A stretch of DNA of 64,000 nucleotides from contig CAWGXH010000003.1 in assembly GCA_963826525.1 (NCBI GenBank), positions 576,001 to 640,000 of the forward strand. Reading direction: 5' to 3'. The notes below the pieces were generated by a model. That model made no database searches. It was not told the origin of the DNA and worked only from the letters and a program-made list of their open reading frames with translations. The position numbers and the translations under genes are program-made. Origin of the DNA: an uncultured Methanomicrobiaceae archaeon. GTDB taxonomy: Archaea > Halobacteriota > Methanomicrobia > Methanomicrobiales > Methanoculleaceae. Shown piece by piece: positions 5,585-56,889 of the stretch (its first letter is position 1; each line of letters opens with the position of its first letter).

Positions 5585-5978
5585 TCGCCCCCTTCTCCTC
5601 CGGGCAGGCAGCCTGTCGGCGTCGCGATTCCTGCCGTGGGTGAACTGTACCGTGAAGCATTCCGTACCCGGAACCGATCCGAATGCCTGCGACCAGCACA
5701 GTCAGGTATATATACTCTCTCCTCTATCACGCCGCGGCGTGGGAACCTCGATGCCGTGGCCCCTCTCGCCCGACACCGCCTACAGGCAGCTCGTCCCTTT
5801 TCAGTACGGTCGACGAGCGATCTGCGCATCCGGCGCAGCGGAGCTCTCCGGGAAGCGGGCATTCACACTATTCATCTGTCTGCCAGGGACTGCACATGCG
5901 ATCGTGGTCGCATGCAGAGGGCTCTCCTTCCGGCGGAGAGACGGAAAACCGGCCAACAGTTGAGTGAAGGTGAAACGT

Positions 5979-20911: not shown

Positions 20912-21031
20912 CGCAGGTTCCCGCTCCGGGCAATCGTGAATTGAAGGGTTGCACCGACGGACTGAAAGCATTTGCTTTTCTTGGCGGGGGGGATCGACAG
21001 GCATATCCGACATGGGGTCCCTGCACTGGGT

Positions 21032-21214
21032 ATGAAGAACATCGAGATGTCGGTCGAGGGGAACGTTCTTAGCATCCGCGTCGATCTTGCAAAGGAGTTC
21101 GGCATTTCAAAGAGCGGCAAGTCGATCACGATAGCGTCCACGGAAGGCAACATATCGGTTCCCGATCATGAAGAGATCAAGATCGGGCTGAATATCTACC
21201 GGAAGAAGGAGTGA
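21032..21214 (+). CDS. Conserved-looking 60-aa hypothetical protein
   Basis: MKNIEMSVEGNVLSIRVDLAKEFGISKSGKSITIASTEGN..KIGLNIY; typical codon usage. Confidence 0.8.
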   Translation: MKNIEMSVEGNVLSIRVDLAKEFGISKSGKSITIASTEGNISVPDHEEIKIGLNIYRKKE

Positions 21215-29827: not shown

Positions 29828-30153
29828 TGCTGATTGTTGGACCGGGGGATGCTATGAATCTATTGAATGAACCGCGCATCTCCACCTCCTGCACTGCAAA
29901 CTGCTCGCAAACGGGAACGAACGGTCATCCGCCGGTACATGAGTGCCGGAGAAGTGTATCGCGGATCTCTCCCGGGAGGCAGTAGATCCCGGAAAAGGCG
30001 TGACAGCCCCGGAGATTCCCTGCAGGAACTGCAATTATTCCGGTAAACACCCTGCGCGCCTGATAACCATAATTCTCTTATCGGATGCAATATTATTTAA
30101 TTACAGCAATATAACTAGGTGAATAATTGAAATACGGGGGGTTAGCCGATACC

Positions 30154-32528
30154 GTGAACAATACTGATAATCTTGCTTTCGATCCTCTGCAGGCCTTCTC
30201 CATCCCTGGTGAGCCGAGCATCGGCATCCTCGTGCTGGACCGTGACCGGAACGTGCTCTGGTGCAACGATGCCGTGCAGGAGATCATCGGAATTCCTCCC
30301 GATGCCGCCGTCGGCATGAATGCCGTGCAGATCATCGACACCTACCTGCTGCCGCGATTGCAGGACCCTTCATGTGCTCACTGCCTGCGAAACCTTCTCC
30401 ACGCCGAGACGGCGCCCCCGCCGTGCGGGTGCCTGATCCGTACGGATTCCGGCGAAACCTGCCTCCTCTCGTGCTCCTGCCAGTACATCGCGACCGGACC
30501 GTTTCAGGATATGATCGTCATCCGGTTCCGGGATATATGCCGGCCGGAGAGACTTGCCGGGGCTTATGCTCAGCAGAGCCATCTCACGCTTCTCGCCGAG
30601 ATGTCCCAACTCTTCGAGACCGCCGGCCTCTCTCCGGGCGAGATATTCACGGCGATCGCCGGGCTGCTGCCGCTCGCTCTCCACTATCCCGACCAGGCAT
30701 ACGCCAGAGTGGTGATCGACGATACGGTGTACAGGCCGGGACGTTCCTGAAACACCCTCTCGACTGACGGCCGATCTCATCATTCACGGCAGCCGGCATG
30801 GGATGGTCGAGGTAGGCTACACCACGCGACCTTCCGAAAGGGAGGGTGAGGCATTCAGCCGGGAAGAGTCGGTCTTCCTGCACCTGGTTGCCGGGATGAT
30901 CGGGCGGGCGCTCGGTCGGCTGCAGGCCGAAGAGGCGCTCGAACGGCAGGCTGCCCTGCTCGATCTCACGCACGATGCCGTTACCGTCTGGGGCATGGAT
31001 GGGCGTATCACCTTCTGGAACCGGGCTGCCGAAGAGGAGTATGGCTGGAGCGGCGACGAAGCACTGGGGCAGGTGACGCACGATCTCCTACAGACGCATT
31101 TTCCGGCCTCGCTTGAATCCAGTATCGCCGAACTCGTCCGTACGGGACACTGGGAGGGTGAACTGGTAAAGTTCCGCCGCGACGGATCACGCGCCGTCGT
31201 TGCGAGCAGATGGGCGCTCCAGCGAGGGAGCGATGGAAAACCGGTCTCAATCCTCGAGATCAATAGCGACATCACCGGAAGAAAGTGTGCAGAAGCGGAG
31301 ATACGGATGCGGAATAGCCATCTCGCCGTACTCAATCAGATCATCACGGTCTCAGCCTCGGCACTCTCGTTCGACGAGCTTATGGAGGCGTCGCTCTCAA
31401 AGACCATGGAACTCCTGGACTTCGATCTCGGCGTTGTGTACCTGCTCGACAGCGATCGCACCCGGGCGCTCCCAAAATATCGCCGGGGAACGCCTGCATC
31501 CCTGCACCATCGCCAGCGCTTTGTCAGTATCCACAACTGGCCGTATAACTTCGTCTTCATCGCCGGCCAGGCACGATACTTCGAGCAGGAGGAGAATCCG
31601 GGCTTGATGGAGGCGGAGCTCCTCCACGATTACGGCGTCAGTGCTCTTGCCGCCATCCCGCTCGTTGCCGAGTCGGTCGTCGTCGGGGCGATCTTTGTCG
31701 GGAGCAGAGAGAAGACATCGCTCTCACTCTCCGAAAAGAGCCTGCTCGAAGCGATAGGCAAGGAGATTGGTGCCGGTGTACTGCGGAGCATGCTGCACAG
31801 AAAACTTGAGGTCGCAAACCGCGAGGCGAATCTCTATCTTGATATTCTGACCCACGACATCAGGAACGCCGAGAACGTCGCCAGCCTGTACTCCGATCTC
31901 CTCTTCGAGATGCTCGACGGTGTCGCTGCCGAGTACGTCGACAAGGTGCGGGCGAGCATCATGAAGGGAACCGAGATGATCAAGTTTGTCTCGACGATCA
32001 GGAATATACATCAGGAACCGATTCTCCTCCGCCCGATCCACCTCGACTCCGTCATCAGGGATGAACTCCGGGATACTCCGAACGTTACGCTCACCTCCTG
32101 CGAGTCGGTTCCCGAGGTCTGGGCGGACGAGTTCGTCGGGGAGACTTTTAAAAAGTCTCATTGGAAACAGCTTGAAATTCGCCGGCCCCGACGCTGCGAT
32201 CGTCGTGAGGGTGGAGGAGTCTTCGGACGAAGTTATCGTCTCGGTGGAGGATTTCGGGCCGGGCGTGCCGGATGACGCGAAAGAAAAGATATTTTACCGG
32301 TTTGAACCGGAGAAGAGCCAGGGTACCGGCACGGGTCTTGAGCTCTACGTTGCGCGGTTGATCGTCGAGCGTTACGACGGTCGAATCTGGGTGGAAGACC
32401 GGGTCGAAGGGTGTCCCGAGCTCGGGGCGGCATTTAAGTTCACGATGAGGACCGTCCTTCCGGAGGACCTGAACCTGCCGGGGTATGAAGAAACCCTGCA
32501 CCGAGGAGCAGAATCCCGTGATGTATGA
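30154..32528 (+). CDS. PAS/GAF sensor histidine kinase (paralogue of 13977-16457), frame breaks near 30745 and 32150
   Basis: LEVANREANLYLDILTHDIRN, LIGNSLKF, EDFGPGV, GTGLEL, IWVEDRV. Confidence 0.9.
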
Positions 32529-38038: not shown

Positions 38039-41000
38039 TCATTCATCCGTCTCCCGGAGGATGCGCCGGATCGTCTCTGCGAGCTCCGGTTCTGCAGTGG
38101 CGAGATACTCGGTGAGGTAACTGCGTGCCGTCTCGCCCATCTCGATGAGGGCACGCTCCGCACGCCGCCTGACGGCAAAATGATCGTCCCGGAGCGCCCG
38201 GAGGAGCGGTGCTGCCGCATCCGTTCCCCCGATCCGCGCGATCGTCTTCACGGCGCTTATCCGGACATCGGCAGAGAGATTGTCGAGCTCTTCTGCGAGT
38301 GTCTCGATGGCGACCGCTCCCATCCGTTCGACCTCGGCCCAGCGCTCTCTTGCTAGTAAGTAGTAGACCTGTTCCGCCTCTGTTCCGGGCGTCCAGCCGA
38401 GGCTCTCGAGTGCCTCCGCAACCCCGAGCTTCAGCTCCCGGTCACCGTGCCTGAGGGCGTCGAGGAGGTGGTCATGCACCACCCCGTTCGGGTCTTTCAG
38501 CGCCTCGAGCGCGGCATGGCGGACGCGGTCATCCACATCGTTGAGCGCATGGATCAGGGGTTCGATGGCGCGCCTATCACCGATATACCCGAGAGACCGC
38601 GCCGCGGCAATCTGTACGGTCTCGTCGCGGTCGCGGAGAGCAAGCGTGAGAGGCTCTATGGCCTGTTTCTTCCCCATGTAGCCGAGCGCCTCGGCTATAA
38701 CCGCCCGGACTTCGGAGTCCCGCTCGCGGTGCAGTGCAGCGATGAGCGTCTCGATAGACCGATCGTTTCCGATCTTTCCAAGGTTTCTCGCCGCAACAAT
38801 CCGTATTCTGCCGTCGTCGTCCGAAAGAGCATCCATGAGCGGTTCGACGGCGACCTCCCGCATCTCCCCGAGAACGCCGGCAGCGGCCGTCTGGATATCG
38901 GGGTCTTCATCCCTGAGAGCCCGGATCAGGCCTTCTGCGGCGGGCCTGCCCATCATGATCAGACGGGTTGCCGCCCCGAGCTGGGACGTCCAGGTCTTCT
39001 CCCGGAGCGCCTTGATGAGATTTCCAATCTCCTTCTCTCCGTGCTCGGTAAACGCCTTCGTATCTTCCTCAGTGATGCTCTTTGCTTTCTTCTTCCTCTT
39101 CGGCGCCGAGGACGCCGCCTCTACCTGCTCCCCGAGGGCTCTCCTCCAGACGTCGAGAACCTCGCGCTTCTTCAGCGCCTGCGATGCCTTCTCTCTCACG
39201 TCGGCATCGTCGTCGTGCAGTGCTCCGAGCAGCGCTTCCGTCGCCCGGTCGTCGACGATCTTCCAGAGTGCATCGATCGCCGCGAGGCGTTCGATCTTCG
39301 AGCCGCCTTTTAGCACCAGCGAGAGTGCGGCGATGGCCGGTGCGCCGATATCGCCGAGTGCCTGGGCAGCGCTCCACCGCACCTCCTGTCCCGGGTCGTT
39401 CAGACAGTCTATGAGTGGTGGAACCGCCCGCGGATCCTTCATGATCCCGAGCGCTCGTGCGGCGGCGACCCTGACTATCGTTGCCGGGTCGGCCAGAGCC
39501 GCGAGGAGGGCGTCGAGCGCCTCCTCGCCGATCGCCGCGAGGGCATCCGCAGCAGCGTGCCGGACGCCGACGTACGGGTCGCTGCAGAGATCCCGGAGCG
39601 GCCTGACCGCCCGCCGGTCGCGGAGCCTCCCGAGCGCTGCTGCGGCGGCGATCCTGACGTCCTGGTCGGTGTCGCCGAGCACTCCGGCGAGCGGCTCGAC
39701 GGCTCGCGTACCCCCCATATCGCCGAGCGCTTCCGCCGCAGCGATCCGGACGACGTAACTCTTGTCCCGGAGCGCTCCGATAAGGGCGTCGATTGCAGGC
39801 TCACCCATACCCCGCAGTGCTTCGATCGCAGCGGCCCGGACTTCCTCGCTATCGTCCTGCAATGCCTTGAGGTAGCGTTCGAGCGGGGTGAGCACGGTCT
39901 CATCCGTTTCTCCCTCCGGCTCTTCCGGCGGCTTTACCGGATCCGGAAGATCGAAGGTGGTGAGCGTCTCGTCCCGCTCGTCCTTCTGGAGCAGAGATGC
40001 ATCCTCATCATCGGGGAGTGCTTCGAAGATCTCCTCTTCAAACTCCGGCGGCAGCAGGTGATCCAGGGATAGCGCCGGTGCCTGCTCCACGGCCGCTTCC
40101 CGAAGACCCTCCTTCGCCTTCGTCCATGCCTGCATCGCCCGCCGGTTCTCCTCAATCAACTGCGAAAGGCTGACTTCGGGTTTTTTCGGCTGAACGGGGG
40201 CGGGCGTTCCCGATGCGGCACCCGGTGACGACGGCTTTTGGGAGGGCGGGGGCTTTGGTTCATTGCCGGCGGGCTTCTTTGCCTGGAAGGTCGGTCTGCC
40301 GTAGCGGTCTTCAAACCTCTTCTGGACGCCGAGCCCCTCTTTGAGCTCGCGTTCGTACCTGTCCGACTGCTCGACAACCGGCCGGGCACGCACCTCCGCT
40401 TCGTTCCATTGCCTGATGACCGCAATGGCGCGGACTGCCGCCTTCTGCTGAACGGGGTCTTTGCTCCTGCATTCCCGGGCGAGCGCTTCGAGAGCCGGTA
40501 CCCCGATCTTCTTGAGCGCTTCCGTCGCGCCCGACCGGACGCCGGAATGATCCTCCTTCAGTGCACGGATCAGCGGTTCGATGGCCGGCCGCCCCATCCC
40601 GACTAGCGCGTTCCACTGCTCTTTCGCTATCAGGTACTGCACCTTCTGGAGTGCGCTCTCCGGTTTCCAGCCAAGTCTGTCGAGTGCCCAGGCCGCCTCC
40701 ATCTGCACCTGGTGACAGTCCTTCTCCAGAGTCCTGAGAAGGGGGGGTCGCGCCCGGGAGTCACGGATCTCTCCGAGAGCCTCAACCGCCGCGGTTCGCA
40801 CCAGAATATCCGGGTCGTCGAGTGCTCGTATCAGGGCAGGGAGTGCCGGAGCCTCGTTGAGCCTTCCGAGCGTTCGTGCCGAATCCCTTCTGACCCGGGG
40901 ATCTTTATCGGTAAGCCCCTGGAGGAGAGCGGGTGCTGCGCCTCTCTTGAGTTTGACGAGCTCAGCATAGTCGCCCCGGAGAAAGTGATACTTCGCCGCA

Positions 41001-41522
41001 TCGTCCTGTTCGGACGGTTTCCATTTCAGCCGTGCAAGCGAACGGGCTGCCGCACGGGCCACCCGCCGGTCGGGATCGCCGAGCGCCTCCCTGAGCGGCG
41101 GGATACCCTGCGGACCGGTTCCCGAGAGAGCGATCGCCGCTCCCTGCCGTATGGCCGGCCGGGTATGGTGAAGTGCCGGAATAAAAGTATCAAGAGCAGA
41201 CTGTTCCGGTCCCGGCCAGTGCATCGGCCATGTTCTCCTGTGCATCTTCCGGGATCTGGATGAGAAGAGCGAGGAACAGCGGAAATACAGGCGCACCGGC
41301 GGAGAGAAGTCCTTCCGAGATCCACGCTCGATCGCCCGGGCTGCTTTGCTCAAGCCTCGCAACCAGCACGGGAACGGCAGCCGCACCGAGGCTGTAGAGT
41401 GCGACTGCGGCCTCTCTCCGAAGCGATGCATCCCCGGCCGCCAGCGCCTCTATCAGACCGTCGATATTCTTCTGCTCTTTTAATCGTCCGATATTCGGCC
41501 TGAATCTGTCAAAGATTGCCAT
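38039..41522 (-). CDS. Large PBS-lyase HEAT-repeat protein (about 1160 aa), frame break near 41205
   Basis: Many L..AL.D.D..VR.AAA.ALG repeats; N-terminus MAIFDRFRPNIGRLKEQKNIDGLIEAL. Confidence 0.9.
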
Positions 41523-41730
41523 GGTCGGTGCACGTCGTCCTGCCGCTCTGAAAACCCGAAAGGGCATCCCGGTTCTCCAAAGGGTGAATCCCGGCAGATA
41601 TACGTGGTAATTTCTCTTGCGAACCAATAAATGTTCCATTCTGTCTTTGGCGATCCGTCGGGATGTGTTATGGCCGCGAAACAAGGTGATGCCAATCTTT
41701 ATCGCAGAGAAGAGCGGTATACCGAAATCT

Positions 41731-42787
41731 ATGGTGGCGCTTGATATTACCCGGCTCCCTGCCGTAGTGCATACGCTCAACCCGGAAAAAGCTGCACTGT
41801 TTGCACGGATCTACTCATACTACAGCGAGACGGGACATCTTGTCCTGCCCGAGCAGATGCAGGACTGGGTGCACGAGAAGTACGGCGAGATCGAACGTCA
41901 GCAGATCGTCCGTGTGGTCAACACCCGGACGAACGAGAGCACGCTCTTTAATTCCGTCAGGGCACGGCGGCCGGTGATAACGATGCGGGCGGATGAGGCT
42001 CTCGTACTGCCCGAGTCGGGCGGCAAAGGGCCGTTCGCCGTTCCTCTCACGGAGACTCCCGAGGATACGTTCGGCAGAATCCACGGGGAACACTGGGTGA
42101 CGGCGAGCAACATCGCCAAGTACGATTACCTCCATGCCCTTATCATCTCACAGGAGAGCGAACCGTTCACGACCGACGAGGCCCGTCTCCTCGATCTCCT
42201 CAATGTCGCCGTCCGCTGGTGCCAGGAGGCGAACCGGGTTAATCCTTCGGCCGTGTATCCGTTCCTTATCTGGAATGTGCTCTGGCGGGCGGGAGCAAGC
42301 GTCGTCCACTGTCATGCGCAGATACTCCTAACGCATATGCCCTACAGCACGCCTGCCTGGATGGCACGGGTGCGGGACGAGTACCGGCGTGAGTACGGGA
42401 GCGAGTACTACGAAGATCTCTTTGCCGTCCATACCGAGCTCGGTCTCGGCTTCTCCTGCGGCGGTGCATCGGTGATGGCGTATCTCACCCCGAAGAAAGA
42501 GCATGAAGTGGTGCTGTTTGCAAAGACGCCGCACGATCTCGTCCCGGCGCTCTCGAGAGTTCTGCTCTGCTACCGGCGGATGGGTATCCGGAGACTTCAA
42601 CGTCGGCCTCTTTATGCCGCGTCTCGAAGAAGAGGACTATTACCTTGCCCGTATCGTCGACCGGGGGGATATTGCCGCACGCACCTCGGATATCGGCGGC
42701 ATGGAACTGTATGCCGGAACGCCCATCGTCGCTTCCGATCCGTTCCTGCTCATGGAGCATCTCTCAGCAGCAATAAACCCTGACTAG
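41731..42787 (+). CDS. GalT/HIT-superfamily nucleotidyltransferase-like protein, frame break near 42590
   Basis: TASNIAKYD..H, WNVLWRAGASVVHCHAQ (HxHxQ), SDIGGMELY..SDPF. Confidence 0.75.
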
Positions 42788-42825
42788 AGCGAATAAGCGT
42801 GCGCAGGTGGTTTTTCCACCACCTT

Positions 42826-43980
42826 TTAGCAGGATAGATGCTCTTCCTGAGCGGTATTCCGGTACGTCTTGGTAAGTCTCTCCGCGACGGTCTCCCACCG
42901 GAACTGCTGCTCTACTTTCTCCCGCCCCTGCCTTCCCATTGCGGCGATGCGGGCCGGGCTGTCGGTTATCGAGAGGAGCCCCTCGGCGATGCTCTCGGGC
43001 TTTGGGAGCACCTTGACGCCGTCCGTACCATGCTCGATATTCTCGCCGAGACCGCCGACGTCCGATGCGACGACGCACCGTTCGGCGCTCCATGCTTCGA
43101 GGAGCACGAGGCCGAAGGGCTCGTTCCTGCTCGGAATGACGACGACATCCGCCGCGTTCAGGAGGCGGAGATGATCGGTGTCGGCGAGGTGGCCGAGGAA
43201 CCGAACCGGAAGTTTCTCTGAGCGTTCTTCGAGCTTCCGGCGCATATCGCCGTCCCCGACGAAGAGGATCTTTCCGTTCTGCTGCTGCTGCAGAAGTGTC
43301 GGCACCGCATCGACGAGTATATCCGGCCCTTTCTGCCAGGCGAGCCTTCCCACAAAGAGCAGAAGGGGTTCGTCCGGGGCGAGGCCGTGCTCCCGTTTCA
43401 CATCGTCCGGGTTTACGTCCCTTTTGTACTCCTGCGGCACCACGCCGTTCGGGACGACGTCGATCTTCCATTCCGGAACATTATAGAGCTGCATGGCCTC
43501 GCTCCGAAGTGTCGAGGAGACTGCCGTGACCCTCTTTGCTATCAGCCCTCCATACCACTCTTTCCCCGATATCTCCCGGTATGCCCATCCGTCTCCGACG
43601 GTGTTGCCGCACCGTCCATACTCCGTCGAATGATACGTAAAAACGGTCTCCCGCTCCTGCAGGTGGTGCATCGCCTCGACGACGTGCCAGTCGTGGAAGT
43701 GGAGGATATCGAAGGGCGTTTTATCCTGCCGCCTGAACTGGTCGACCATGCTGTGGCTCATCCGGCCGCAGTAGTCGATGATGTCGGTCCCCGTGGGCTG
43801 GCAGTAATGGTAGCGGACTCCGTTGATCTCCTCGCCGTCTCCCTTTCCCCTCGTGAAAAAGTGTATCTCATGGGTACGGGCGAGCGTCTCGGCGAGGTTG
43901 GTTGCCGCGTTGGCCAGTCCCCCGACCCGTTCGGCATGGAGGGACTCCCAGCAGAAAAATGCAATCTTCAGGCTCTCCAT
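42826..43980 (-). CDS. Glycosyltransferase family 4 (glycogen synthase-like)
   Basis: VGGLA, HFHDWH, FVGRLAWQKG, PSRNEPFGLVLLEAW. Confidence 0.92.
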   Translation of the reverse strand: MESLKIAFFCWESLHAERVGGLANAATNLAETLARTHEIHFFTRGKGDGEEINGVRYHYCQPTGTDIIDYCGRMSHSMVDQFRRQDKTPFDILHFHDWHVVEAMHHLQERETVFTYHSTEYGRCGNTVGDGWAYREISGKEWYGGLIAKRVTAVSSTLRSEAMQLYNVPEWKIDVVPNGVVPQEYKRDVNPDDVKREHGLAPDEPLLLFVGRLAWQKGPDILVDAVPTLLQQQQNGKILFVGDGDMRRKLEERSEKLPVRFLGHLADTDHLRLLNAADVVVIPSRNEPFGLVLLEAWSAERCVVASDVGGLGENIEHGTDGVKVLPKPESIAEGLLSITDSPARIAAMGRQGREKVEQQFRWETVAERLTKTYRNTAQEEHLSC

Positions 43981-50337: not shown

Positions 50338-51126
50338 TCACCCGGTCTCCGCAAGGCTCCGCCGAATCTGCCGCCGGGTCTGCCACTCCACCACGCGGCC
50401 GATCGCGTCGTAGACCGGGTTGACCGGCACGTCGACGAAGTAGCGCTTTCCGGGCTCGAGCCAGCCCATCTCGTTCCAGTAGGCGTAATCAGCCGGAGCG
50501 TGTTTGCGGAGCTCGTCGAACGCTCCCCGCTGGGCGCGGAAGACGATGACGTCCCGAAGATGCGGCGATCGGCGCGTCTTTCGGTTCAGGGTGTCCGCGA
50601 AGGCTTTTGCAGCCTGCATGAGTTTCTGCTCGTTCTCCTGCATCTGCCGTGCGGAGATGCCCGGAGGCGTGACGATCCCGACGCGGCCGGCGACCTCGAA
50701 TCCCCAGATACCGGCGACAAGACTGAGATAGTCGAGGACGTCCTTCTCCCCGAGCGCACCGGTGGTCACGAGGAGGAGCGCTTTTTTGTCGAAGAACCGG
50801 GGGCGGTGGAAGATGTAACTCAACCGGTCGATGAAGACCTTCATCAGCCCAGAGACGTTCATCCCGTAGACCGGGGAGGCGAAGATCACGCCGTCGGCCT
50901 CGTGCATCTTCTGCTCGATCGACGGGGCATCGTCTTTGCGGGGGCAGTGCTCCTCGCCCTTCTCAAAACAGAGGAAACAGCCCAGGCACTGCGCGAGGTC
51001 GGCGTCCTTCAGCATTAGGTACTCGAACTCGACATCCCCGAGCGACTGCATCGCCTCTCTGATCCGCTCCGCCGCCCGGTAGGTGTTGCCCTTCCGCGGA
51101 CTGCCCATAACGACAAGGATCTTCAT
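50338..51126 (-). CDS. Iron-sulfur flavoprotein / flavodoxin family
   Basis: VMGSPRKGNT, CLGCFLCF..HC, ADGVIFASPVY..KVFIDR. Confidence 0.88.
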   Translation of the reverse strand: MKILVVMGSPRKGNTYRAAERIREAMQSLGDVEFEYLMLKDADLAQCLGCFLCFEKGEEHCPRKDDAPSIEQKMHEADGVIFASPVYGMNVSGLMKVFIDRLSYIFHRPRFFDKKALLLVTTGALGEKDVLDYLSLVAGIWGFEVAGRVGIVTPPGISARQMQENEQKLMQAAKAFADTLNRKTRRSPHLRDVIVFRAQRGAFDELRKHAPADYAYWNEMGWLEPGKRYFVDVPVNPVYDAIGRVVEWQTRRQIRRSLAETG

Positions 51127-51190
51127 GATGTCGTATACCGACTGCGATACTATCAATCAGTAGGCCCGGTGCGGTCGACCCCTCTCTCTG

Positions 51191-51590: not shown

Positions 51591-52166
51591 ATGTATGTTG
51601 TCGCATTCAACGGAAGCCCGCGGGCCGGTGGGAACACCGAACGGCTGATCCGCCATGCCCTCGCCGTCCTCGAGGAGGAGGGGATCGAGACCGAACTTGT
51701 CCAGATCGGAGGAAAACCGGTCCACGGCTGCACGGCATGCCAGAAATGCTTCGAGAACCAGGATAAGCGCTGTATCATCGGGAAGGACTCCGTCAACCTC
51801 TGCATCGAAAAGATGGTCGCAGCGGACGGGATCATCATCGGCTCTCCCACCTACTTCGCCGACCTCTCACCCGAGACCAAAACACTCATCGACCGGGCAG
51901 GTTTCGTAGGGATCGCAAACGGCGGGCTGTATGCCCGAAAGGTGGGTGCGGCGGTCGTTGCCGCCCGTCGCGGCGGAGCAATCCATGCCTTCGACTCGAT
52001 CAATCACTTCTTCGGCATCAGCAATATGTTCACGGTGGGCTCGTCCTACTGGAACATCGGTATCGGCCTTGAAGCCGGGGACGTCGAGGATGATGCCGAA
52101 GGAATAGCGACGATGCAGAACCTGGGGCGGAATATGGCATGGCTGCTGAAGAAGATAGCCTCGTGA
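51591..52166 (+). CDS. Iron-sulfur flavoprotein (Isf family)
   Basis: FNGSPRAGGNT, CTACQKC..RC, GSPTYF, ARRGGA, GSSYWN. Confidence 0.92.
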   Translation: MYVVAFNGSPRAGGNTERLIRHALAVLEEEGIETELVQIGGKPVHGCTACQKCFENQDKRCIIGKDSVNLCIEKMVAADGIIIGSPTYFADLSPETKTLIDRAGFVGIANGGLYARKVGAAVVAARRGGAIHAFDSINHFFGISNMFTVGSSYWNIGIGLEAGDVEDDAEGIATMQNLGRNMAWLLKKIAS

Positions 52167-52254: not shown

Positions 52255-53142
52255 TTGAAAGAGCTCGACGATTTCCTCGAACCGTTGCACCGGGGCGTCT
52301 GGGAGGTTGCGGTACCAAAGGAGTCGGTGAAAGAATCGCTCGGCCCGGGGTGGGAGAAGTCTGCGCTGAACCTCCCCACCCCCGGGACGATCGCCAGTTA
52401 CCGGAAAGGGCAGTATCACGTGCACGAGACGGCGACGGAATGGCGGGTGCACCTCGACCGGTACGATCCGAAGGAGCACCCCCTGCTCCACCTGGTCGAC
52501 GATGCCCCGCTCGTCTTCATGATCAGCGGCACGCTCCTCGCCCTCATCATGGATACGAAGAGCGCCCTTCGCAGGGAGACCTCATCCCTTGTGGAGGAGC
52601 AGAAGGTGGCCTGGCAGCTCCTGATCGTCGCCGGGTTCTGCATGATGCTGATCGGCGTGCTGATCGGTGTAAACCCACTCTCCTCCTTCGAGAGGATTCT
52701 CATTCTCGCCGTCCGCCTGAGTGTTATCGGCCTTGCTCTGGTCGTTATCGGGAGAGGGCTGCACCATGACCCGCTCCGGGTCGTATCCAGGGGGCGGGTC
52801 CTCCTCGGCCTCGGCATCCTTGCGATCGGACTCGTCTCGTTCTCCCTCGAACTTGAGTGGGTGGCCTCGGTTTTTATCCTGATCCTGGCGCTGTGGGCCT
52901 TCGCCAGCGCCGCCGTCTCGCTGAAGCGCACCGTCAGGGGCCGCCTCGCCGTTCCGGAGGGTTTTTACAAGCGCCTCGGCATCGGCATCGCCTCGCTCCT
53001 CTTTGCACTCTTCATCCTCGTCGCCCCGGACGCAATCGAGGAGCTGCTCGTGTACGTCGTGAGCGCAATCGGCCTGCTCTTCGGCTTTCTGCTGGTGCTC
53101 GATGGACTGAGCTTCCGAAGACGGATGAGGACGGGTGCGTGA
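52255..53142 (+). CDS. Hypothetical membrane protein (soluble N-terminus plus about 6 TM helices)
   Basis: HVHE..VHLDRYDP..HLVDD followed by hydrophobic helices; TTG start. Confidence 0.75.
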   Translation: MKELDDFLEPLHRGVWEVAVPKESVKESLGPGWEKSALNLPTPGTIASYRKGQYHVHETATEWRVHLDRYDPKEHPLLHLVDDAPLVFMISGTLLALIMDTKSALRRETSSLVEEQKVAWQLLIVAGFCMMLIGVLIGVNPLSSFERILILAVRLSVIGLALVVIGRGLHHDPLRVVSRGRVLLGLGILAIGLVSFSLELEWVASVFILILALWAFASAAVSLKRTVRGRLAVPEGFYKRLGIGIASLLFALFILVAPDAIEELLVYVVSAIGLLFGFLLVLDGLSFRRRMRTGA

Positions 53143-53252
53143 AGGAGCGCCTCTCCCGCGGGTGCGCATCTTCAGGTCGGCCGGGGCTCCGGCGTCCACC
53201 GTCTCAATCACCGTTCCACTTATTGTCTGGTACAGCGTACCTTTTTAATGAA

Positions 53253-55887
53253 ATGCGCGAACCGGCCGTCAAGAAAGATCTCTACTGGTGCGATACCTGC
53301 AACGTCCCCCTCATCGGGCGACGATGCGGCTGCGGAGCGGAGGGAAGGCAGATCCCTCTCCTGCAGCCCTACGATCTCCGCCCGGCACTGAGAGCGGATG
53401 CCGACCTCATCAGGAGGCTCGTGCACGAGCGATTCGGCGCGGTTCCCCTGCCGAAGATCATCCTCCTGAACAAGACCGGGGGCACCGATCGTGCCGACCT
53501 CGTGATCATGCACGGGGACCGGTTCGGCTGGCTTACGTTCGATCCGGTGGAGCGGAAGTTCAGTCTCGATATCGCACCCGAGGCGCTCCCCTATATCATA
53601 CCCTACGCAACACGCGGCATCGTCGCTCTCGAGGAGCACCTCGACCCCGGCAGGGGAAAGATCCGTATCGGCGGCAAACGGTTTCCCTTAACGACCCCGG
53701 TGCCCGAAGGTATGGCGATCGTGACCTACCGGGGCAGACACGGTACCGGGATCGTCCGCGAGGGGCATATCAAGGTGAAAGAACTCTCGCCGGTGACCCC
53801 CCGGGAGTGCAGCGACCCTGACTGGAATATCGCTATCGAGCGGAACCGCTACCACCTCAAAAACCTCGAGCGGGCCGCCGTCCGCACCATCCGGCAGCAT
53901 ATGCACGACCGGCCTACGGCGAACGTATCCTTCTCCGGCGGCAAGGACAGCGCCGCCGTCCTCCACCTCGCCCGGAAAGCCGGTGTTACGAAGGCCTTCT
54001 TCATCGATACCGGGATAGAGCTCCCGGAGACGATCGAGTACGTCGCATCGCAGGACGTCGAGATCGTCCGGAAAGCCGGAGACTTCTACCAGGCGGTCGA
54101 GAAGGTCGGGCCGCCCGGGAAAGATCACCGCTGGTGCTGCAAGCTCTTAAAGCTCCACCCGCTCAAGATCTACCTCGCCGAGATAGGCCCCTCCGTCACG
54201 ATGCAGGGGAACCGGTGGTATGAGTCCTGGAACCGTGCCAATCTCGATGAGACGAGCCAGAACCCGGCAAACCCCCTGCAGCTCAACGTATCCCCGATAC
54301 GGAGCTGGCGGGCGCTCGAGGTCTTCCTCTACCTCTGGTGGCAGAACGTTCCTATAAACCCGCTCTACGAGAAGGGCCTCGAGCGGATTGGGTGCTTCCT
54401 CTGTCCGGCCATGCTCGAGAGCGAGTACCGAAGCGCTCCGGGTCATGCACCCCGACCTCACCCGGCGCTGGGATGAGTTCCTCGAGAAGTGGGCGGCGAA
54501 GTCAGGGATGCCCGACGCCTACTGCACGTGGGGGCTCTGGCGGTGGCGGGCGCTGCCGCCGAAGATGCGCGAACTCTGCAGAGACAGGGGTATTCCCGTC
54601 AACGAGGACTACACGCTGCGTCCCCTGCCGGAAGAGGAGCGGCGGATTCCGGTCGAAACACGGGCTCCGCCTGCCGAGCCGGTCGGGAGCGTTGAGGCCG
54701 ACGTGTTCGCCGTCGATGCCGTCAGGAAGGACTTCCCGATCCTCGGGGATTTCGTCTACCTCGACTCCGCGGCGATGAGTTTCTCACCGGAACCGGTCGT
54801 AGCGGCGCACATCGAGTTCGAACACCGCTACCGGGCCAACGTCGGACGGGGCGTGCACCGGTTCACCCGGATCGCCACCCAGCGCTACTGGCATGCCCAC
54901 GAGAAGGTGGCGCGGTTCATCGGCGGCGATGCGGGCGTTACGGTCTTTACGAAGAACACGACCGAGGCGATCAACATGGTCGCGCAGGGGCTCTGCTGGA
55001 AGCCGGGAGACCGGGTGATCACCACGATCCTCGAGCACCACTCGAACCTGCTGCCGTGGCGGGCGCTTGCGCGGCAGGGCGTCGCGCTCGACGTCATCGG
55101 CATCAATGAGGACTACTCGCTCGACCTTGCCGCGCTCGAGGGAGCCATCACCGATGCGACCCGGCTCGTCGCCGTCACCCATGCCTCGAACGCCCTCGGC
55201 GTCGTCACCCCCATCGAGGAGATCGCCCGGATCTGCCGTGACCGCGGTGTTCTCCTGCTCGTCGATGCTGCGCAGTCCCTCCCGCATATGCCCGTCGATA
55301 TCGCACGGCTCGGGTGCGACTTTGTCTGCTTCTCCGGGCAGAAGATGCTCGGACCGACCGGCACCGGCGTCCTCTGGATGAGAGAGCCGATCATCGAGCC
55401 GTCCATGCTCGGCGGGGGGATGATCGAGACCGTGACAGAAGACGCCTATGTTCCGGCCGAAGGCTACGGACGCTACGAAGCCGGGACGCCGAACATTGCC
55501 GGAGGGATTGGCCTCGGGGTTGCGGTGGACTACCTTGCAGCGATCGGCATGGAGAATATCCGCCGACATGAAGAGCGCCTGACCGCACGGCTCATCGAAG
55601 GGCTCTCCGCGATCGACGGTGTCCGGGTCTATGCACCGGAAGATCCGGCATCCCGCATCGGTGTCGTCTCCTTCACCGTCAAAGATCTCCACCCGCACGA
55701 GGTCGCGCAGCATCTCGACGAGGAGGCGGAGATCCTCGTCCGGTCCGGCCACCACTGCTGCCAGCCGCTCATGGAGTACCTCGGTCTGCCCGATGGGACG
55801 GTGCGGGCGAGTCTTGCACTCTACACCACCGAACAGGAGATCGATCTCCTCATCGCCGCCGTCGGGGATATTGCCCGGGGCGCGTAA
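53253..55887 (+). CDS. PAPS-reductase-family Fe-S domain fused to SufS-type cysteine desulfurase, frame break near 54429
   Basis: WCDTCNVP..CGC, SFSGGKDS, RWCC..K, ERIGCFLCP; then GLWRW..YLDSAA, EHHSN, DAAQS, FSGQKMLGP, RSGHHCCQPL. Confidence 0.88.
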
Positions 55888-55902: not shown

Positions 55903-56646
55903 TTACCCCCGGCGTCCCGCTACCCGCTCTTCGTGCGTGTATACGAGCATCTCCGTCTCCCGGAGGCACCCGATGAGGCAGAGCCCCGTCTCTTCTGCTA
56001 TCTCGATTGCAAGAGCACTGCTGCTTGCGGTCGATACGAGGATGGGGATATTTGCGGCGAGGCACTTTCGCACCATCTCCGAGGTTATTCTCCCCGTCGT
56101 GACGGCGAAGGTCTCTGAAAAATCGATCCCTTTCCGGAGTCCGGAGCCGATGATCCGGTCGAGGGCGTTATGGCGATCGATATCGGCAAAACACGCGATC
56201 ACGCCGCCGGAACCGGCGAGGACGACCGTTTCGAGATCGCCTGGGGGGAGAGAGCTCCGTGCGGCCTCAGCGATGACCGGGACGGAGACGGAGAAGTCGG
56301 ATTGGATCTTCGGGAGTTTCTCCGCATCGATGTAGGAGACGGCTCCCCCGCACCCGGAGAGGATGGTCTTTTTCCGCCCGGTCGTCTTGAACGGGTCTTT
56401 CGTAAGGACGCTGATACGATTCTCCTCGGTCCGGATCGATTCGATATCGCCCGGGCTTTTGATGATCTGCTCGGTATAGAGGTAGCCCGTGACGAGCTCG
56501 TCAAACTGCCCCGGGCTCGCAAGCACGGTCACGGCATGGCGGCCGTTGACGAATATCGCCACCGGTACCTCTTCGACGACCTCCTCGGCCGACTCTTCAC
56601 GCGATATCCCGTCGATACGGATACAGGGGATCTTCTTTGCTGCCAT
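55903..56646 (-). CDS. fdhD: Formate dehydrogenase accessory sulfurtransferase FdhD
   Basis: VVEEVP.AIFVNG, GYLYTE, DIDRHNALD, TTGRITSEMVRK. Confidence 0.9.
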   Translation of the reverse strand: MAAKKIPCIRIDGISREESAEEVVEEVPVAIFVNGRHAVTVLASPGQFDELVTGYLYTEQIIKSPGDIESIRTEENRISVLTKDPFKTTGRKKTILSGCGGAVSYIDAEKLPKIQSDFSVSVPVIAEAARSSLPPGDLETVVLAGSGGVIACFADIDRHNALDRIIGSGLRKGIDFSETFAVTTGRITSEMVRKCLAANIPILVSTASSSALAIEIAEETGLCLIGCLRETEMLVYTHEERVAGRRG

Positions 56647-56889
56647 TCTCATTGCACGCTCCACAAAGCCGTTCCGTGAGGGTATTCCCGGCGGGCTTTT
56701 GCAAGATATAAATGTGTGTGTCGTGAACGTCGGCTCCGACGGACAGTGTCACCCGCATCGTCGTCTGCGGGTCTTCGGATCGGCACGGCCCCGGAGTCGT
56801 TCTGCCAATACAGGATGCGTTGAATGATACATATTACTACCTGGCAGCGGCCGGACAAAACAGACCTTCCGGAACCGGCAGCAGGGATC

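What the first reader, a model, noticed from the sequence alone, without database searches (positions are those of the whole stretch)
53253..55887. PAPS-reductase-like/cysteine desulfurase fusion: DndC+DndA chemistry in one protein
Seen: Zn-ribbon, PP-loop SGGKDS, CC..CxxC Fe-S ligands, then SufS with the catalytic Cys. The fusion does not depend on the indel, because the tail of the first domain (WDEFL..GLWRW) is in frame with SufS. The PLP motif is SGQK rather than SGHK. Knowledge: DNA phosphorothioation uses a desulfurase (DndA/SspA) plus a PAPS-reductase-family adenylating Fe-S protein (DndC/SspD); archaeal homologues of this family often carry RNA-binding PUA domains. No sat, cysC or dndBDE genes are nearby. 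Inference: a self-contained sulfur-insertion enzyme for RNA/DNA (backbone or base thiolation) or a cofactor, not a sulfate-assimilation enzyme.
Basis: partly seen in the sequence, partly recalled or inferred. Interest (0 to 1): 0.75.

Follow-up and report, generated by a model that had tools for sequence, protein, structure and literature searches.

The report
PUA/PAPS-reductase-like enzyme fused to SufS
This is a real two-enzyme fusion conserved across one order of methanogens, probably a sulfur-inserting enzyme with its own sulfur supply, but the fusion is already in print, its target is unknown, and the break in this copy looks like an assembly error.

Summary
The motifs are all present at 53253-55887. 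The gene is split by one extra C at 54428/54429. In 23 of 30 relatives the same gene is one open frame of about 870-1080 aa. In this window 9 of 34 genes are frame-split against a same-genus genome, and dN/dS is 0.12-0.17. So the break is most likely an assembly error.

Layout, N to C:
- Zn ribbon
- Nip7-like pre-PUA/PUA fold
- canonical PP-loop (SGGKDS) domain of the PAPS-reductase superfamily, with CC...CxxC cysteines
- helical extension and disordered linker
- SufS-type cysteine desulfurase

It belongs to the archaeal PRK13795-type family. Other members carry a ferredoxin tail where this one carries SufS.

It is not CysH and not DndC by curated models. Its nearest defence-system relative is BrxP. 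The genome has no ATP sulfurylase match.

Added here: an FdhD sulfurtransferase gene lies beside the fusion in 20 of 24 genomes. A SufS-FdhD complex model passes its controls. One cysteine (Cys442) is specific to the fused clade.

Two papers already note the fusion and read it as CysH or a putative (P)APS reductase. The best reading is a thiolation enzyme, probably acting on RNA, whose SufS also serves FdhD. The substrate is unknown.

The parts
53253..54428 (+). First reading frame of the fusion gene (residues 1-392): Zn ribbon, pre-PUA/PUA-like module and PP-loop domain up to ...CPAMLESEY
   Evidence: Translation. 94.6% identical to the intact G001 ortholog over 392 aa. PF01507 at 126.5 bits.
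53286..53336 (+). Zn ribbon, CxxC...CxC (C13, C16, C25, C27)
   Evidence: C25 and C27 are invariant and C13 and C16 are at least 90% conserved in the 57-row alignment A2. The AF2 model shows short beta strands here.
53370..53792 (+). Nip7-like pre-PUA plus PUA-like module (residues about 40-180). Basic: pI 9.06 for residues 1-190.
   Evidence: VIA-align matches: 2p38_B Z 8.3 (121 aligned, rmsd 3.1), 1q7h_A Z 7.9, 2cx1_A Z 6.8. No Pfam PUA hit in this protein at E<=0.01. The paralog and wider family do carry PF01472. pI.
53823..54416 (+). PP-loop ATP-pyrophosphatase-type domain of the PAPS-reductase superfamily. SGGKDS at 53934-53951, CC at 54135-54140, CxxC at 54393-54404.
   Evidence: Pfam. 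Fold matches 8rom_A Z 19.1, 4bwv_B Z 18.2, 1zun_A Z 18.2, 7lhr_A Z 17.1. In A1 (89 rows) S228, G229, G230, S233 and C295 are invariant; K231, D232, C296, C381 and C384 are at least 90% conserved.
54428..54429 (+). One extra C (CC where two same-genus genomes have C). It shifts the frame by +1.
   Evidence: DNA alignment with L002 and L003. In the same window 9 of 34 G001 ORFs with a hit are frame-split.
54430..54654 (+). Helical C-terminal extension of the first module (HPDL...WDEFL...GLWRW...PPKMRELCR), in the SufS frame. Cys442 is the TGC codon inside 54568-54585.
   Evidence: Matches PRK13795.1-1 model positions 451-512. Helices 389-467 have high pLDDT. Cys442 is present in 8 of 8 fused rows plus L031. 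It is absent at that column in 5 of 5 other unfused rows and 4 of 4 ferredoxin-type rows.
54655..54717 (+). Acidic, Pro-rich disordered linker
   Evidence: pLDDT is below 50 for residues 468-486 of the full-length model. Length varies among orthologs, and G016 carries a TPESR(A/T) repeat expansion here.
54718..55887 (+). SufS-type (class V, type II-like) cysteine desulfurase domain. PLP lysine in FSGQKM at 55330-55347, catalytic cysteine loop SGHHCCQP at 55744-55767, stop codon at 55885-55887.
   Evidence: PF00266 at 413.8 bits. TIGR01979 at 420.4 bits, below the 475.1 cut-off. PDB cysteine desulfurases 5b7s_A E 1.2e-106 and SufS 5xt5_A E 1.8e-100, found with the G001 ortholog.
55903..56664 (-). 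FdhD/NarQ-family sulfurtransferase gene, convergent with the fusion gene. A conserved neighbour and a predicted partner of the SufS domain.
   Evidence: PF02634 at 188 bits. The SGCGG cysteine loop is invariant in 6 of 6 aligned. Adjacent in 20 of 24 genomes. Complex model score 0.62 against a best control of 0.00.

Best explanation
With the single-base assembly error discounted, the locus encodes a protein of about 877 aa. This protein is conserved across most of the order Methanomicrobiales.

Proposed mechanism, all inferred:
1. The SufS domain uses PLP to strip sulfur from L-cysteine onto its loop cysteine (HHCCQP), forming a persulfide.
2. A flexible linker lets that loop reach the N-terminal module. 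There the sulfur passes to the [4Fe-4S] site ligated by CC...CxxC, possibly by way of the fused-clade-specific Cys442.
3. The canonical PP-loop (SGGKDS) uses ATP to adenylate an oxygen of the substrate. Sulfur then replaces that oxygen.
4. The basic Zn-ribbon/Nip7-like PUA module holds the substrate. This makes an RNA (tRNA or rRNA) the most likely target. The change could be at a base or at the backbone.
5. The same SufS domain probably also hands sulfur to the FdhD encoded next door, for sulfuration of Mo/W-pterin cofactors.

Shown here: the architecture, its conservation, the motifs, the folds, the gene linkage and purifying selection. Inferred: every chemical step and the substrate.
For: Conservation:
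- 23 of 30 relatives have a single open frame of 867-1082 aa.
- Fused orthologs carry names from Methanoculleus, Methanoregula and Methanocalculus.
- dN/dS is 0.12-0.17 in both halves.
- The fused clade is monophyletic in a quick tree (SH-aLRT 100).

ATP-dependent chemistry:
- In 89 family members, S228, G229, G230 and S233 of SGGKDS are invariant, and K231 and D232 are at least 90% conserved.
- The true APS reductases aligned have degenerate loops instead (SGAEDV, SNMADA).

Fe-S site: C295 is invariant, and C296, C381 and C384 are at least 90% conserved. They align with the CC...CxxC of APS reductases.

Sulfur supply: the SufS domain has its PLP lysine and catalytic cysteine. Cys442 is present in 8 of 8 fused rows plus the secondarily split L031. 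It is absent at that column in 9 of 9 other rows.

Nucleic-acid hint:
- The N-terminal module has a Nip7/PUA fold (Z 8.3, 7.9, 6.8).
- Pfam PUA is found in the paralog (64.6 bits) and in most Atlas family clusters.
- pI is about 9.0 for the N-terminal modules against 5.26 for SufS.

Kinship with a proven sulfur inserter:
- PADLOC BrxP scores 131 bits, against SspD 44 and DndC 19.
- BrxP plus BrxC plus a SufS make phosphorothioate DNA (PMC12914056, passages).
- BrxP also has an alpha+beta domain followed by a ferredoxin-like Cys region (PMC12839542, section 34). The ferredoxin-type members of this family have the same arrangement.

Not sulfate assimilation: there is no ATP sulfurylase match and no credible APS kinase.

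FdhD link:
- FdhD is adjacent in 20 of 24 genomes, covering 8 of 10 genera, in three different orientations.
- G030 has a free SufS (61% identical) directly upstream of FdhD.
- The four genomes checked that lack the SufS ortholog have only distant FdhD: 31-38% identical in G025, G021 and G006, and G020 holds a single FdhD-family match.
- The SufS-domain/FdhD complex model scores 0.62. The best of 3 controls scores 0.00. That mark was reached by 58 of 80 solved complexes and 2 of 110 mismatched pairs. The counts hold only roughly because my own alignments were used. The runs agree in at least 96% of contacts, and the partner's pLDDT is at least 83.
Against: - No substrate is identified, and no experiment bears on it.
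- Pfam PUA does not hit this protein itself. Z values of about 8 are borderline by the tool's own note. From memory, PUA folds also occur in non-RNA enzymes such as glutamate 5-kinase and ATP sulfurylase.
- The known tRNA thiolases ThiI and an NcsA/TtuA-like protein are present in the genome. No known thio-modification is therefore left without an enzyme.
- The literature reads the family as putative APS/PAPS reductases, citing assays of M. jannaschii homologs (PMC6286981). I could not see those assays.
- Unfused orthologs have no SufS nearby. Four genomes lack a SufS ortholog altogether. So the first module does not strictly need SufS, and the fusion could be a by-product of SufS-FdhD neighbourhood.
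- The full-length AF2 model gives pTM 0.73 with a disordered linker. No fixed docking of the two halves is shown.
- The named SufS-FdhD interface (SufS 528-550; FdhD 37-41, 74-77, 84-91) includes neither catalytic cysteine.
Confidence: 0.5

Rival explanations
1. The operative unit is SufS-FdhD, a persulfide supply for sulfuration of the Mo/W-bis-pterin cofactor of formate or formylmethanofuran dehydrogenases. On this reading the PUA/PAPS-reductase-like module was fused onto SufS by neighbourhood. It either works independently of SufS or acts somewhere in the same cofactor pathway.
For: - FdhD is adjacent in 20 of 24 genomes with the fusion.
- G030 has a free SufS-FdhD operon, with the first module encoded 2.5 Mb away.
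- SufS and the close FdhD paralog are present or absent together in the six genomes checked.
- G021, nested inside the fused clade, lost the SufS domain and has no close FdhD.
- The complex model passes at 0.62 against 0.00.
- The same genome holds another open frame that joins molybdopterin-oxidoreductase domains to a class-V desulfurase domain.
- Precedents recalled from memory and not read here: E. coli IscS-FdhD, and eukaryotic Moco sulfurase (a NifS-like domain fused to a Moco-binding domain).
Against: - The fusion has been kept under purifying selection across at least five families.
- A cysteine was gained specifically in the fused clade, next to the linker. This argues that the tether is used.
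- In G030 the free SufS-FdhD pair also sits beside another PP-loop thiolase gene (TtuA/NcsA-like). So SufS serving PP-loop enzymes is a recurring theme.
- No known step of Mo/W cofactor synthesis needs a PP-loop/[4Fe-4S] enzyme of this family (recalled).
Confidence: 0.2
2. It is an assimilatory APS or PAPS reductase that makes sulfite (for example for coenzyme M), as the literature annotates this archaeal family. The SufS domain would be an accessory.
For: - PF01507 fold. CC...CxxC and the following Lys align with APS reductase. Fold matches to APS/PAPS reductases reach Z 16-18.
- PMC6286981 places archaeal homologs, including ones with a C-terminal cysteine desulfurylase domain, with M. jannaschii proteins reported to reduce APS or PAPS (passage).
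- PMC11237513 calls it CysH-SufS (passage).
Against: - Curated models fall far below their cut-offs: PRK02090 66 vs 154, TIGR02055 56.5 vs 235.3, TIGR00434 37.6 vs 165.1, TIGR02057 29.3 vs 254.2.
- The PP-loop is canonical SGGKDS, where the reductases aligned have degenerate loops.
- No conserved cysteine follows the CxxC across the family to act as the sulfo-enzyme nucleophile.
- The genome has no ATP sulfurylase match, and only a 20.9-bit P-loop hit to APS kinase.
- A PUA-type module and a cysteine desulfurase have no role in sulfate reduction.
Confidence: 0.12
3. It is a DNA phosphorothioation enzyme of a Dnd/Ssp/BREX-type-4-like defence system.
For: - BrxP 131 bits, SspA 190 bits, DndA 185 bits.
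- The pairing of a cysteine desulfurase with a PAPS-reductase-like protein is the hallmark of these systems (PMC12914056).
Against: - DndC scores 18.4 bits against 290.4.
- No DndD is found: 19 bits against 245.85.
- No P-loop NTPase, PglZ, BrxL or DUF4007 appears in the protein or among the seven neighbours scanned.
- It is a single-copy gene inherited vertically, with 63-76% identity across the order and ordinary neighbours. This is unlike patchy defence islands.
Confidence: 0.04
4. In this genome the gene is a true frameshifted pseudogene, or is read by programmed frameshifting.
For: One extra C splits the frame. No public run holding the stretch could be found to check reads (best share of words 0.10).
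Against: - 9 of 34 compared genes in this 64-kb window are frame-split against G001, with 12 frame changes in all.
- ThiI and an IscS-like gene elsewhere in the genome are also split.
- The genome scores 87.6% complete with 5.3% contamination in only 16 contigs.
- dN/dS is 0.12-0.14 against G001 on both sides of the break.
- No relative has the extra base.
Confidence: 0.05

Closest known systems
Archaeal PRK13795-type 'PUA-PAPS reductase-like' proteins (NCBIfam NF010366-NF010369, named 'hypothetical protein')
   Same: These are the best-scoring curated models: 305, 259, 232 and 201 bits for the first frame alone. The Zn ribbon, PUA-type module, invariant SGGKDS, CC...CxxC and the GLWRW helical extension are shared.
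   Different: Those proteins are about 580-670 aa and end in an alpha+beta domain plus a 2x[4Fe-4S] ferredoxin-like domain. Here that tail is replaced by SufS. The PUA module no longer hits Pfam PUA. Scores stay below the curated cut-offs (456-1086). Those searches that returned papers turned up no experimentally established function for the family.
BrxP (BREX type 4) and SspD with SspA/DndA/SufS: DNA phosphorothioation
   Same: The PP-loop PAPS-reductase-like domain and its extension match PADLOC BrxP (131 bits, residues 192-447 against model positions 100-381). Both work with a cysteine desulfurase. BrxP also carries an alpha+beta domain and a ferredoxin-like Cys region (PMC12839542).
   Different: There is no DUF4007, BrxC/SspC ATPase, PglZ or BrxL. 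This is a housekeeping-type, vertically inherited gene. It has a PUA-type module instead of DNA-system partners, and the desulfurase is covalently fused.
[4Fe-4S]-dependent PP-loop tRNA thiolases (TtuA, NcsA, TtcA) and ThiI with IscS
   Same: They share the PP-loop fold (NcsA 6scy_A Z 12.5, TtuA 5mko_A Z 11.2, ThiI 4kr6_A Z 9.0). They also share an Fe-S cluster beside the ATP site, a sulfur supply from a cysteine desulfurase, and an RNA-binding accessory domain.
   Different: They belong to a different PP-loop subfamily (PF01171 or PF02568, not PF01507). The cluster here has four Cys ligands in the APS-reductase pattern. From memory, the thiolases use three. ThiI and an NcsA/TtuA-like protein are separately present in this genome.
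Assimilatory APS/PAPS reductase (CysH)
   Same: Same superfamily fold (Z 16-18). The CC...CxxC pattern matches the Fe-S type APS reductases.
   Different: This protein has a canonical ATP-binding PP-loop and no conserved C-terminal nucleophile cysteine. Curated models fall far below their cut-offs. The genome has no sulfate activation genes. The PUA and SufS modules are extra.
IscS-FdhD sulfur relay of E. coli and eukaryotic Moco sulfurase (recalled, not read here)
   Same: A cysteine desulfurase paired with FdhD, through conserved adjacency and a passing complex model. A desulfurase tethered to a partner module.
   Different: The desulfurase here is SufS-type rather than IscS-type. The tethered module is a PP-loop Fe-S enzyme, not a Moco-binding domain.

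Membership tests
Assimilatory APS/PAPS reductase (CysH) | Reaches the curated family score | tested here: not met
   PRK02090 66 vs 154; TIGR02055 56.5 vs 235.3; TIGR00434 37.6 vs 165.1; TIGR02057 29.3 vs 254.2.
Assimilatory APS/PAPS reductase (CysH) | Conserved C-terminal catalytic cysteine (the ECGLH-type motif; the motif is recalled from memory) | tested here: not met
   No invariant or 90%-conserved Cys follows C384 in 89 family rows. The only Cys in the extension (C442) is confined to the fused clade.
Assimilatory APS/PAPS reductase (CysH) | PAPS_reduct fold with CC...CxxC cluster ligands (Fe-S subtype) | tested here: met
   PF01507 at 126.5 bits. Z 16-18 to APS/PAPS reductases. The cysteines align with those of 7lhr and 2goy.
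Assimilatory APS/PAPS reductase (CysH) | Genome can make APS or PAPS | tested here: not met
   PF01747 gives no match. PF01583 gives only 20.9 bits over model positions 2-48. The genome is 87.6% complete, so absence is not proven.
Assimilatory APS/PAPS reductase (CysH) | Reduces APS or PAPS to sulfite | not testable with these tools
   Assays of M. jannaschii homologs are only cited second-hand in PMC6286981.
DndC | Reaches the TIGR03183 cut-off | tested here: not met
   18.4 bits vs 290.4. PADLOC DndC models score 19.4 and 16.4 bits.
DndC | Partner DndD (and dndB/E) in the locus or genome | tested here: not met
   TIGR03185 best 19 bits vs 245.85 over the whole genome. None was found among seven neighbours. 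dndB and dndE were not searched by their own models.
BrxP / SspD (BREX type 4, Ssp) | PAPS-reductase-like domain of the BrxP type | tested here: inconclusive
   PADLOC BrxP 131 bits, E 1.2e-38, covering model positions 100-381 of 779. SspD 44 bits. This library gives no curated cut-off.
BrxP / SspD (BREX type 4, Ssp) | DUF4007 module and BrxC/PglZ/BrxL (or SspB/SspC) neighbours | tested here: not met
   No further Pfam family was found in either frame at E<=0.01. The neighbours are FMN reductases, a membrane protein, FdhD, DUF3303 and a DNA alkylation repair protein.
SufS-type cysteine desulfurase | Class-V fold, PLP lysine, catalytic cysteine loop | tested here: met
   PF00266 at 413.8 bits. 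The lysine in FSGQKM and the cysteines in SGHHCCQP are conserved in all orthologs that cover those columns; L007 ends before the loop. PDB cysteine desulfurase 5b7s_A E 1.2e-106 and SufS 5xt5_A E 1.8e-100.
SufS-type cysteine desulfurase | Reaches the TIGR01979 cut-off | tested here: not met
   420.4 bits vs 475.1. It is the best of 75 models but lies below the curated score.
SufS-type cysteine desulfurase | Dedicated sulfur acceptor (SufE or SufU) | not tested
   Not searched here. PMC8351635 Table 1 lists SufE in 0 of 32 Methanomicrobiales genomes (passage). Candidate acceptors here are Cys442 and FdhD Cys104 (inference).
PRK13795-type archaeal PUA-PAPS reductase-like family | Zn ribbon, PUA-type module, SGGKDS, CC...CxxC and GLWRW extension | tested here: met
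PRK13795-type archaeal PUA-PAPS reductase-like family | C-terminal ferredoxin-like 2x[4Fe-4S] domain, and the curated score | tested here: not met
   The tail is replaced by SufS. Scores 305, 259, 232 and 201 bits against cut-offs 745, 456, 588 and 1086.
PUA domain | Pfam PF01472 match | tested here: not met
   No hit at E<=0.01 in this protein. The paralog in the same genome scores 64.6 bits.
PUA domain | PUA fold | tested here: inconclusive
   2p38_B Z 8.3, 1q7h_A Z 7.9, 2cx1_A Z 6.8 over model residues 38-180. The tool notes that Z under 8 may reflect only a common arrangement. Sequence homology to PUA-bearing family members supports the fold.
FdhD/NarQ (the neighbour gene) | PF02634 over its cut-off, and a conserved cysteine loop | tested here: met
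   188 bits vs 27.2. SGCGG is invariant in 6 of 6 aligned.

The most novel reading that the evidence does not exclude
The widespread archaeal PUA/PAPS-reductase-like family is a housekeeping cousin of BrxP. On this reading it puts sulfur into RNA: either a phosphorothioate in the backbone of tRNA or rRNA, or a thio-base at a position with no known enzyme. The Methanomicrobiales SufS fusion would then be the 'Rosetta stone' that reveals the sulfur chemistry of the whole family. The FdhD paralog next door would be a third member of the relay.
Probability: 0.12. Interest if true: 0.9.

Novelty: new variant of a known kind. Interest (0 to 1): 0.5.

Why it matters
A large archaeal protein family is annotated as 'PAPS reductase' or 'hypothetical'. 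It occurs in organisms that often cannot make APS or PAPS. The covalent fusion to a cysteine desulfurase, the canonical ATP-binding loop and the kinship with BrxP together argue that the family inserts sulfur rather than reducing sulfate. If that is confirmed, thousands of genes would be re-annotated. It could also expose an unknown RNA modification.

The conserved SufS-FdhD linkage also offers a testable route for sulfuration of Mo/W-pterin cofactors in methanogens. Their formate and formylmethanofuran dehydrogenases depend on that cofactor.

For this window alone the result is more modest. The gene is an ordinary member of an order-wide ortholog group, and its break is most likely an assembly error.

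Tried and rejected
- Programmed frameshift or pseudogene: rejected as the main reading, because the window is full of frame breaks and selection is purifying.
- Read-level check of the extra C: the look-up of sequencing runs found no run with more than 0.10 of the sampled words. I did not lay reads, so the base is not checked against raw data.
- Solved structure of the family: sequence search of the PDB with the first frame gave only weak APS/PAPS reductase and CysD hits (best E 1e-06).
- Gene context of the unfused orthologs: the conserved neighbours are purH and grpE-dnaK-dnaJ. These gave no functional lead.
- Docking of the two halves: the full-length AF2 model gave pTM 0.73 with a disordered linker. 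I could not read distances from the model, so it neither supports nor opposes a fixed docking.
- Replacement of ThiI or NcsA: rejected, because both are present.
- Literature:
  - 'MJ0066' returned 0 papers.
  - 'PUA domain' with 'PAPS reductase' returned 3 papers, none on this family.
  - 'PAPS reductase' with PUA, tRNA and archaea returned 4 papers, none on this family.
  - Lee 2011 and Cho 2013 were not in the library. I know them only through PMC6286981.
  - Supplementary tables of PMC6286981 and PMC11237513 (protein lists, cluster 536) were not opened. They may list this very ortholog group.
- Tree: the careful tree did not finish. Only the quick tree (SH-aLRT, 51 rows that I chose from the 150 listed hits plus loci) is reported.
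- Frame-split count: of 56 G001 ORFs of at least 150 aa, 34 had a window hit at 55% identity or more. The other 22 were left out of the count.

Full report
WHAT IS THERE.

Between 53253 and 55887 on the + strand lie two overlapping open frames, 52857-54476 and 54388-55887. The first, read from the ATG at 53253, has these features:
- a CxxC...CxC zinc ribbon at 53286-53336;
- SGGKDS at 53934-53951;
- WCCK at 54132-54143;
- GCFLCP at 54390-54407.

The second frame starts with the tail of the same module (EALRVMHPDL...WDEFL...GLWRW). It runs on into a class-V aminotransferase domain with FSGQKM at 55330-55347 and SGHHCCQP at 55744-55767. Pfam gives PAPS_reduct at 126.5 bits and Aminotran_5 at 413.8 bits.

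THE FRAME BREAK.

Two same-genus genomes have GAGTACGAAGCG where the window has GAGTACCGAAGCG, so there is one extra C at 54428/54429. The evidence points to an assembly error:
- The best hit in 23 of 30 relatives lies in a single open frame of 867-1082 aa.
- I fetched the syntenic 85 kb of the same-genus genome G001 and laid its 56 long ORFs on the window.
  - 34 of them had a hit at 55% identity or more.
  - 22 of those were single full-length matches.
  - 9, including this gene, were split between frames, with 12 frame changes in all.
- ThiI and an IscS-like gene elsewhere in the genome are split in the same way.
- The genome scores only 87.6% complete with 5.3% contamination, although it has just 16 contigs.
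- dN/dS against G001 is 0.124 upstream and 0.138 downstream of the break. These values match those between the two intact relatives.

No public run held the stretch, so raw reads could not be consulted. The stretch after the break still matches positions 451-512 of the PRK13795.1-1 model, and it is in frame with SufS.

ARCHITECTURE.

I used the unaltered intact ortholog of G001 (P0003, 880 aa). An AlphaFold2 model of residues 1-470, built from an 89-row alignment, has mean pLDDT 95.8 and pTM 0.93.

An all-against-representatives structural search gave two groups of matches:
- Residues about 198-395 match the PAPS-reductase/PP-loop fold.
  - human FAD synthase PAPS domain, Z 19.1
  - a plant APS reductase, Z 18.2
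  - CysD, Z 18.2
  - M. tuberculosis APS reductase, Z 17.1
  - NcsA, Z 12.5
  - TtuA, Z 11.2
- Residues about 40-180 match two-lobed pre-PUA/PUA proteins.
  - a Nip7 homologue, Z 8.3 with 121 residues aligned
  - 1q7h, Z 7.9
  - 2cx1, Z 6.8

Pfam PUA does not hit this protein. It does hit the 468-aa paralog in the same genome (64.6 bits) and most clusters of the wider family.

Conservation across the 89 family rows:
- Invariant: S228, G229, G230, S233, R293, C295, K300, R321, E324, S325, P348 and W352.
- At least 90% conserved: K231, D232, C296, C381 and C384.

The N-terminal modules are basic (pI 9.06 and 8.96). The SufS domain is acidic (pI 5.26). In the full-length model, residues 468-486 are disordered and pTM is 0.73. 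One Methanoculleus-group ortholog carries a long TPESR(A/T) repeat in this linker. So the two halves are tethered, and no fixed contact between them is shown.

FAMILY PLACEMENT.

The best curated models are the archaeal PRK13795 'hypothetical protein' set (305, 259, 232 and 201 bits). All fall below their cut-offs. The reason is that those proteins, about 580-670 aa long, end in an alpha+beta domain and a 2x[4Fe-4S] ferredoxin-like domain. The Methanomicrobiales protein has SufS in that place.

Other models score as follows:
- CysH-type models: 29-66 bits against cut-offs of 154-254.
- DndC: 18.4 bits against 290.4.
- PADLOC defence models: BrxP 131 bits over residues 192-447, SspD 44, DndC 19. 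The SufS half scores 190 with SspA and 185 with DndA.

BrxP, together with BrxC and a SufS, makes phosphorothioate DNA (PMC12914056, passages). BrxP is also described as a PAPS-reductase domain followed by an alpha+beta domain and a ferredoxin-like cysteine region (PMC12839542, section 34). The ferredoxin-type members of the present family have the same order of parts.

A quick maximum-likelihood tree (51 rows of my choosing, SH-aLRT only, careful search unfinished) shows three things:
- The fused proteins form one clade (support 100).
- That clade is nested among unfused Methanomicrobiales orthologs.
- One 'unfused' protein (G021) sits inside the fused clade, which indicates a secondary loss of SufS.

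WHY NOT A SULFATE-REDUCING ENZYME.

- The true APS reductases aligned have degenerate loops (SGAEDV, SNMADA) where this family has the canonical ATP-binding SGGKDS.
- No cysteine after the CxxC is conserved across the family to act as a sulfo-enzyme nucleophile.
- The genome has no ATP sulfurylase match, and only a 20.9-bit P-loop hit to APS kinase.

Against this, Yu et al. 2018 (PMC6286981, passages) group these archaeal proteins with M. jannaschii proteins reported to reduce APS or PAPS. They explicitly include homologs with a C-terminal cysteine desulfurylase domain. I could not see those assays, so this rival keeps some weight.

THE NEIGHBOUR.

The convergent gene at 55903-56664 is an FdhD/NarQ-family protein (188 bits) with an invariant SGCGG loop.

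Adjacency. I combined the positions. An FdhD match lies within about 1 kb of the fusion gene in 20 of the 24 genomes that have the fusion. The exceptions are G010 and G012 (FdhD on other contigs), G019 (11 kb away) and G027 (15 kb away). This covers 8 of 10 genera and three different orientations. These genomes are kin, so the count overstates independence.

Unfused orthologs. None of five loci with an unfused ortholog has FdhD within 8 kb.

Co-occurrence:
- G030 has a free SufS (61% identical) immediately upstream of FdhD. Beside them lie a TtuA/NcsA-like PP-loop gene and a PALP enzyme.
- G020, G021, G025 and G006 lack a SufS ortholog. The best class-V hits there are 32-34% identical.
- FdhD in G025, G021 and G006 is only 31-38% identical. 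G020 holds a single FdhD-family match.

Complex model. The SufS domain (residues 485-880) was modelled with FdhD:
- The score was 0.62, and the best of 3 controls scored 0.00.
- The mark was reached by 58 of 80 solved complexes and 2 of 110 mismatched pairs. The counts hold only roughly because my own alignments were used.
- The runs agree in at least 96% of contacts, and the partner's pLDDT is at least 83.
- The confident contacts join SufS 528-550 to invariant FdhD residues (VNGR 38-41, E74, S75, S84). They include neither catalytic cysteine.

The model supports binding but does not show it.

A CLADE-SPECIFIC CYSTEINE.

The motif PPKMRE-L/I-C-R lies just before the linker. Its cysteine (Cys442) is present in all 8 fused rows examined and in the secondarily split G021 protein. 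The same column is A or L in 5 of 5 other unfused orthologs and A or E in 4 of 4 ferredoxin-type proteins. The PUA paralog does not align there. A cysteine gained together with the SufS tether is what a persulfide relay would need. This is an inference.

MOST LIKELY MECHANISM.

1. SufS makes a persulfide from cysteine.
2. The tether delivers it, perhaps through Cys442, to the [4Fe-4S]/PP-loop site.
3. ATP adenylates an oxygen of the substrate.
4. Sulfur replaces that oxygen.

The PUA-type module and the basic charge point to RNA as the substrate. The same SufS very likely also serves the neighbouring FdhD. I put about 0.5 on this combined reading.

Rivals:
- SufS-FdhD is the real unit and the fusion is incidental: 0.2.
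- A true (P)APS reductase: 0.12.
- DNA phosphorothioation: 0.04.
- The break being real, which is a separate question: 0.05.

NOVELTY.

The fusion is already in print. PMC11237513 describes 'cluster 536', found exclusively in Methanomicrobiales, as CysH fused with SufS (passage). PMC6286981 mentions the desulfurylase-bearing homologs. Databases name the protein 'aminotransferase class V-fold PLP-dependent enzyme', 'phosphoadenosine phosphosulfate reductase' or 'cysteine desulfurase/selenocysteine lyase'.

None of the papers I opened mentions the following. None of my literature searches was aimed at them.
- the Nip7/PUA-type fold of the N-terminus;
- the kinship with BrxP;
- the swap of ferredoxin for SufS at the same position;
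- the FdhD linkage and complex model;
- the clade-specific cysteine.

This is a new variant of a known kind of system: a PP-loop Fe-S sulfur inserter paired with a cysteine desulfurase. It is of moderate interest until a substrate is found.

Noticed in passing
window 5967-7144, 7204-8347, 19120-21195, 21587-23231, 23527-25511, 30127-32519, 38045-41522, 41674-43033: Eight further genes in the window are split between reading frames relative to intact ORFs of the same-genus genome G001. Three of them are split twice. The assembly appears indel-prone, so any 'frameshift' finding in this window needs caution.
   Followed up: partly
L015:190-2652 (G000:C4, about 1264821-1267283): One 821-aa open frame joins the C-terminal part of a molybdopterin oxidoreductase (PF00384, PF01568) to a NifS/IscS-like class-V domain (PF00266, 281.8 bits). 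This may be a second case in this genome of a cysteine desulfurase tethered to Mo/W-pterin biology. It may also be an artefact of the indel-prone assembly.
   Followed up: partly
L016:1492-2644 and 2571-3047 (G000:C4, about 312 kb): An IscS/NifS-like gene next to an IscU-like gene is also frame-split, and the break falls at the PLP-lysine motif. ThiI at G000:C4:1660500-1661082 is split as well.
   Followed up: no
L007 (G016:C3:183770-187951), linker of the fusion ortholog: The inter-domain linker carries a long tandem repeat of TPESR(A/T) units, about 70 extra residues. The linker therefore tolerates large length changes.
   Followed up: no
L041:6044-13638 (G030:C1, about 220-228 kb): A sulfur gene cluster in a genome with an unfused ortholog. 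It holds a class-V enzyme, a free SufS, FdhD, a TtuA/NcsA-like PP-loop thiolase with an N-terminal LIM-type zinc finger, and a PALP (cysteine-synthase-like) enzyme.
   Followed up: partly
L032:6426-13042, and syntenic parts of L033, L035 and L036: Unfused orthologs of the first module sit in a conserved block between purH (divergent) and grpE-dnaK-dnaJ (downstream) in four genomes.
   Followed up: partly
window 50338-51153 (-) and 51597-52163 (+): Two divergent NADPH-dependent FMN reductase/flavodoxin-fold genes and a 295-aa membrane protein with no Pfam family lie just upstream of the fusion gene. All three are syntenic in G001.
   Followed up: no
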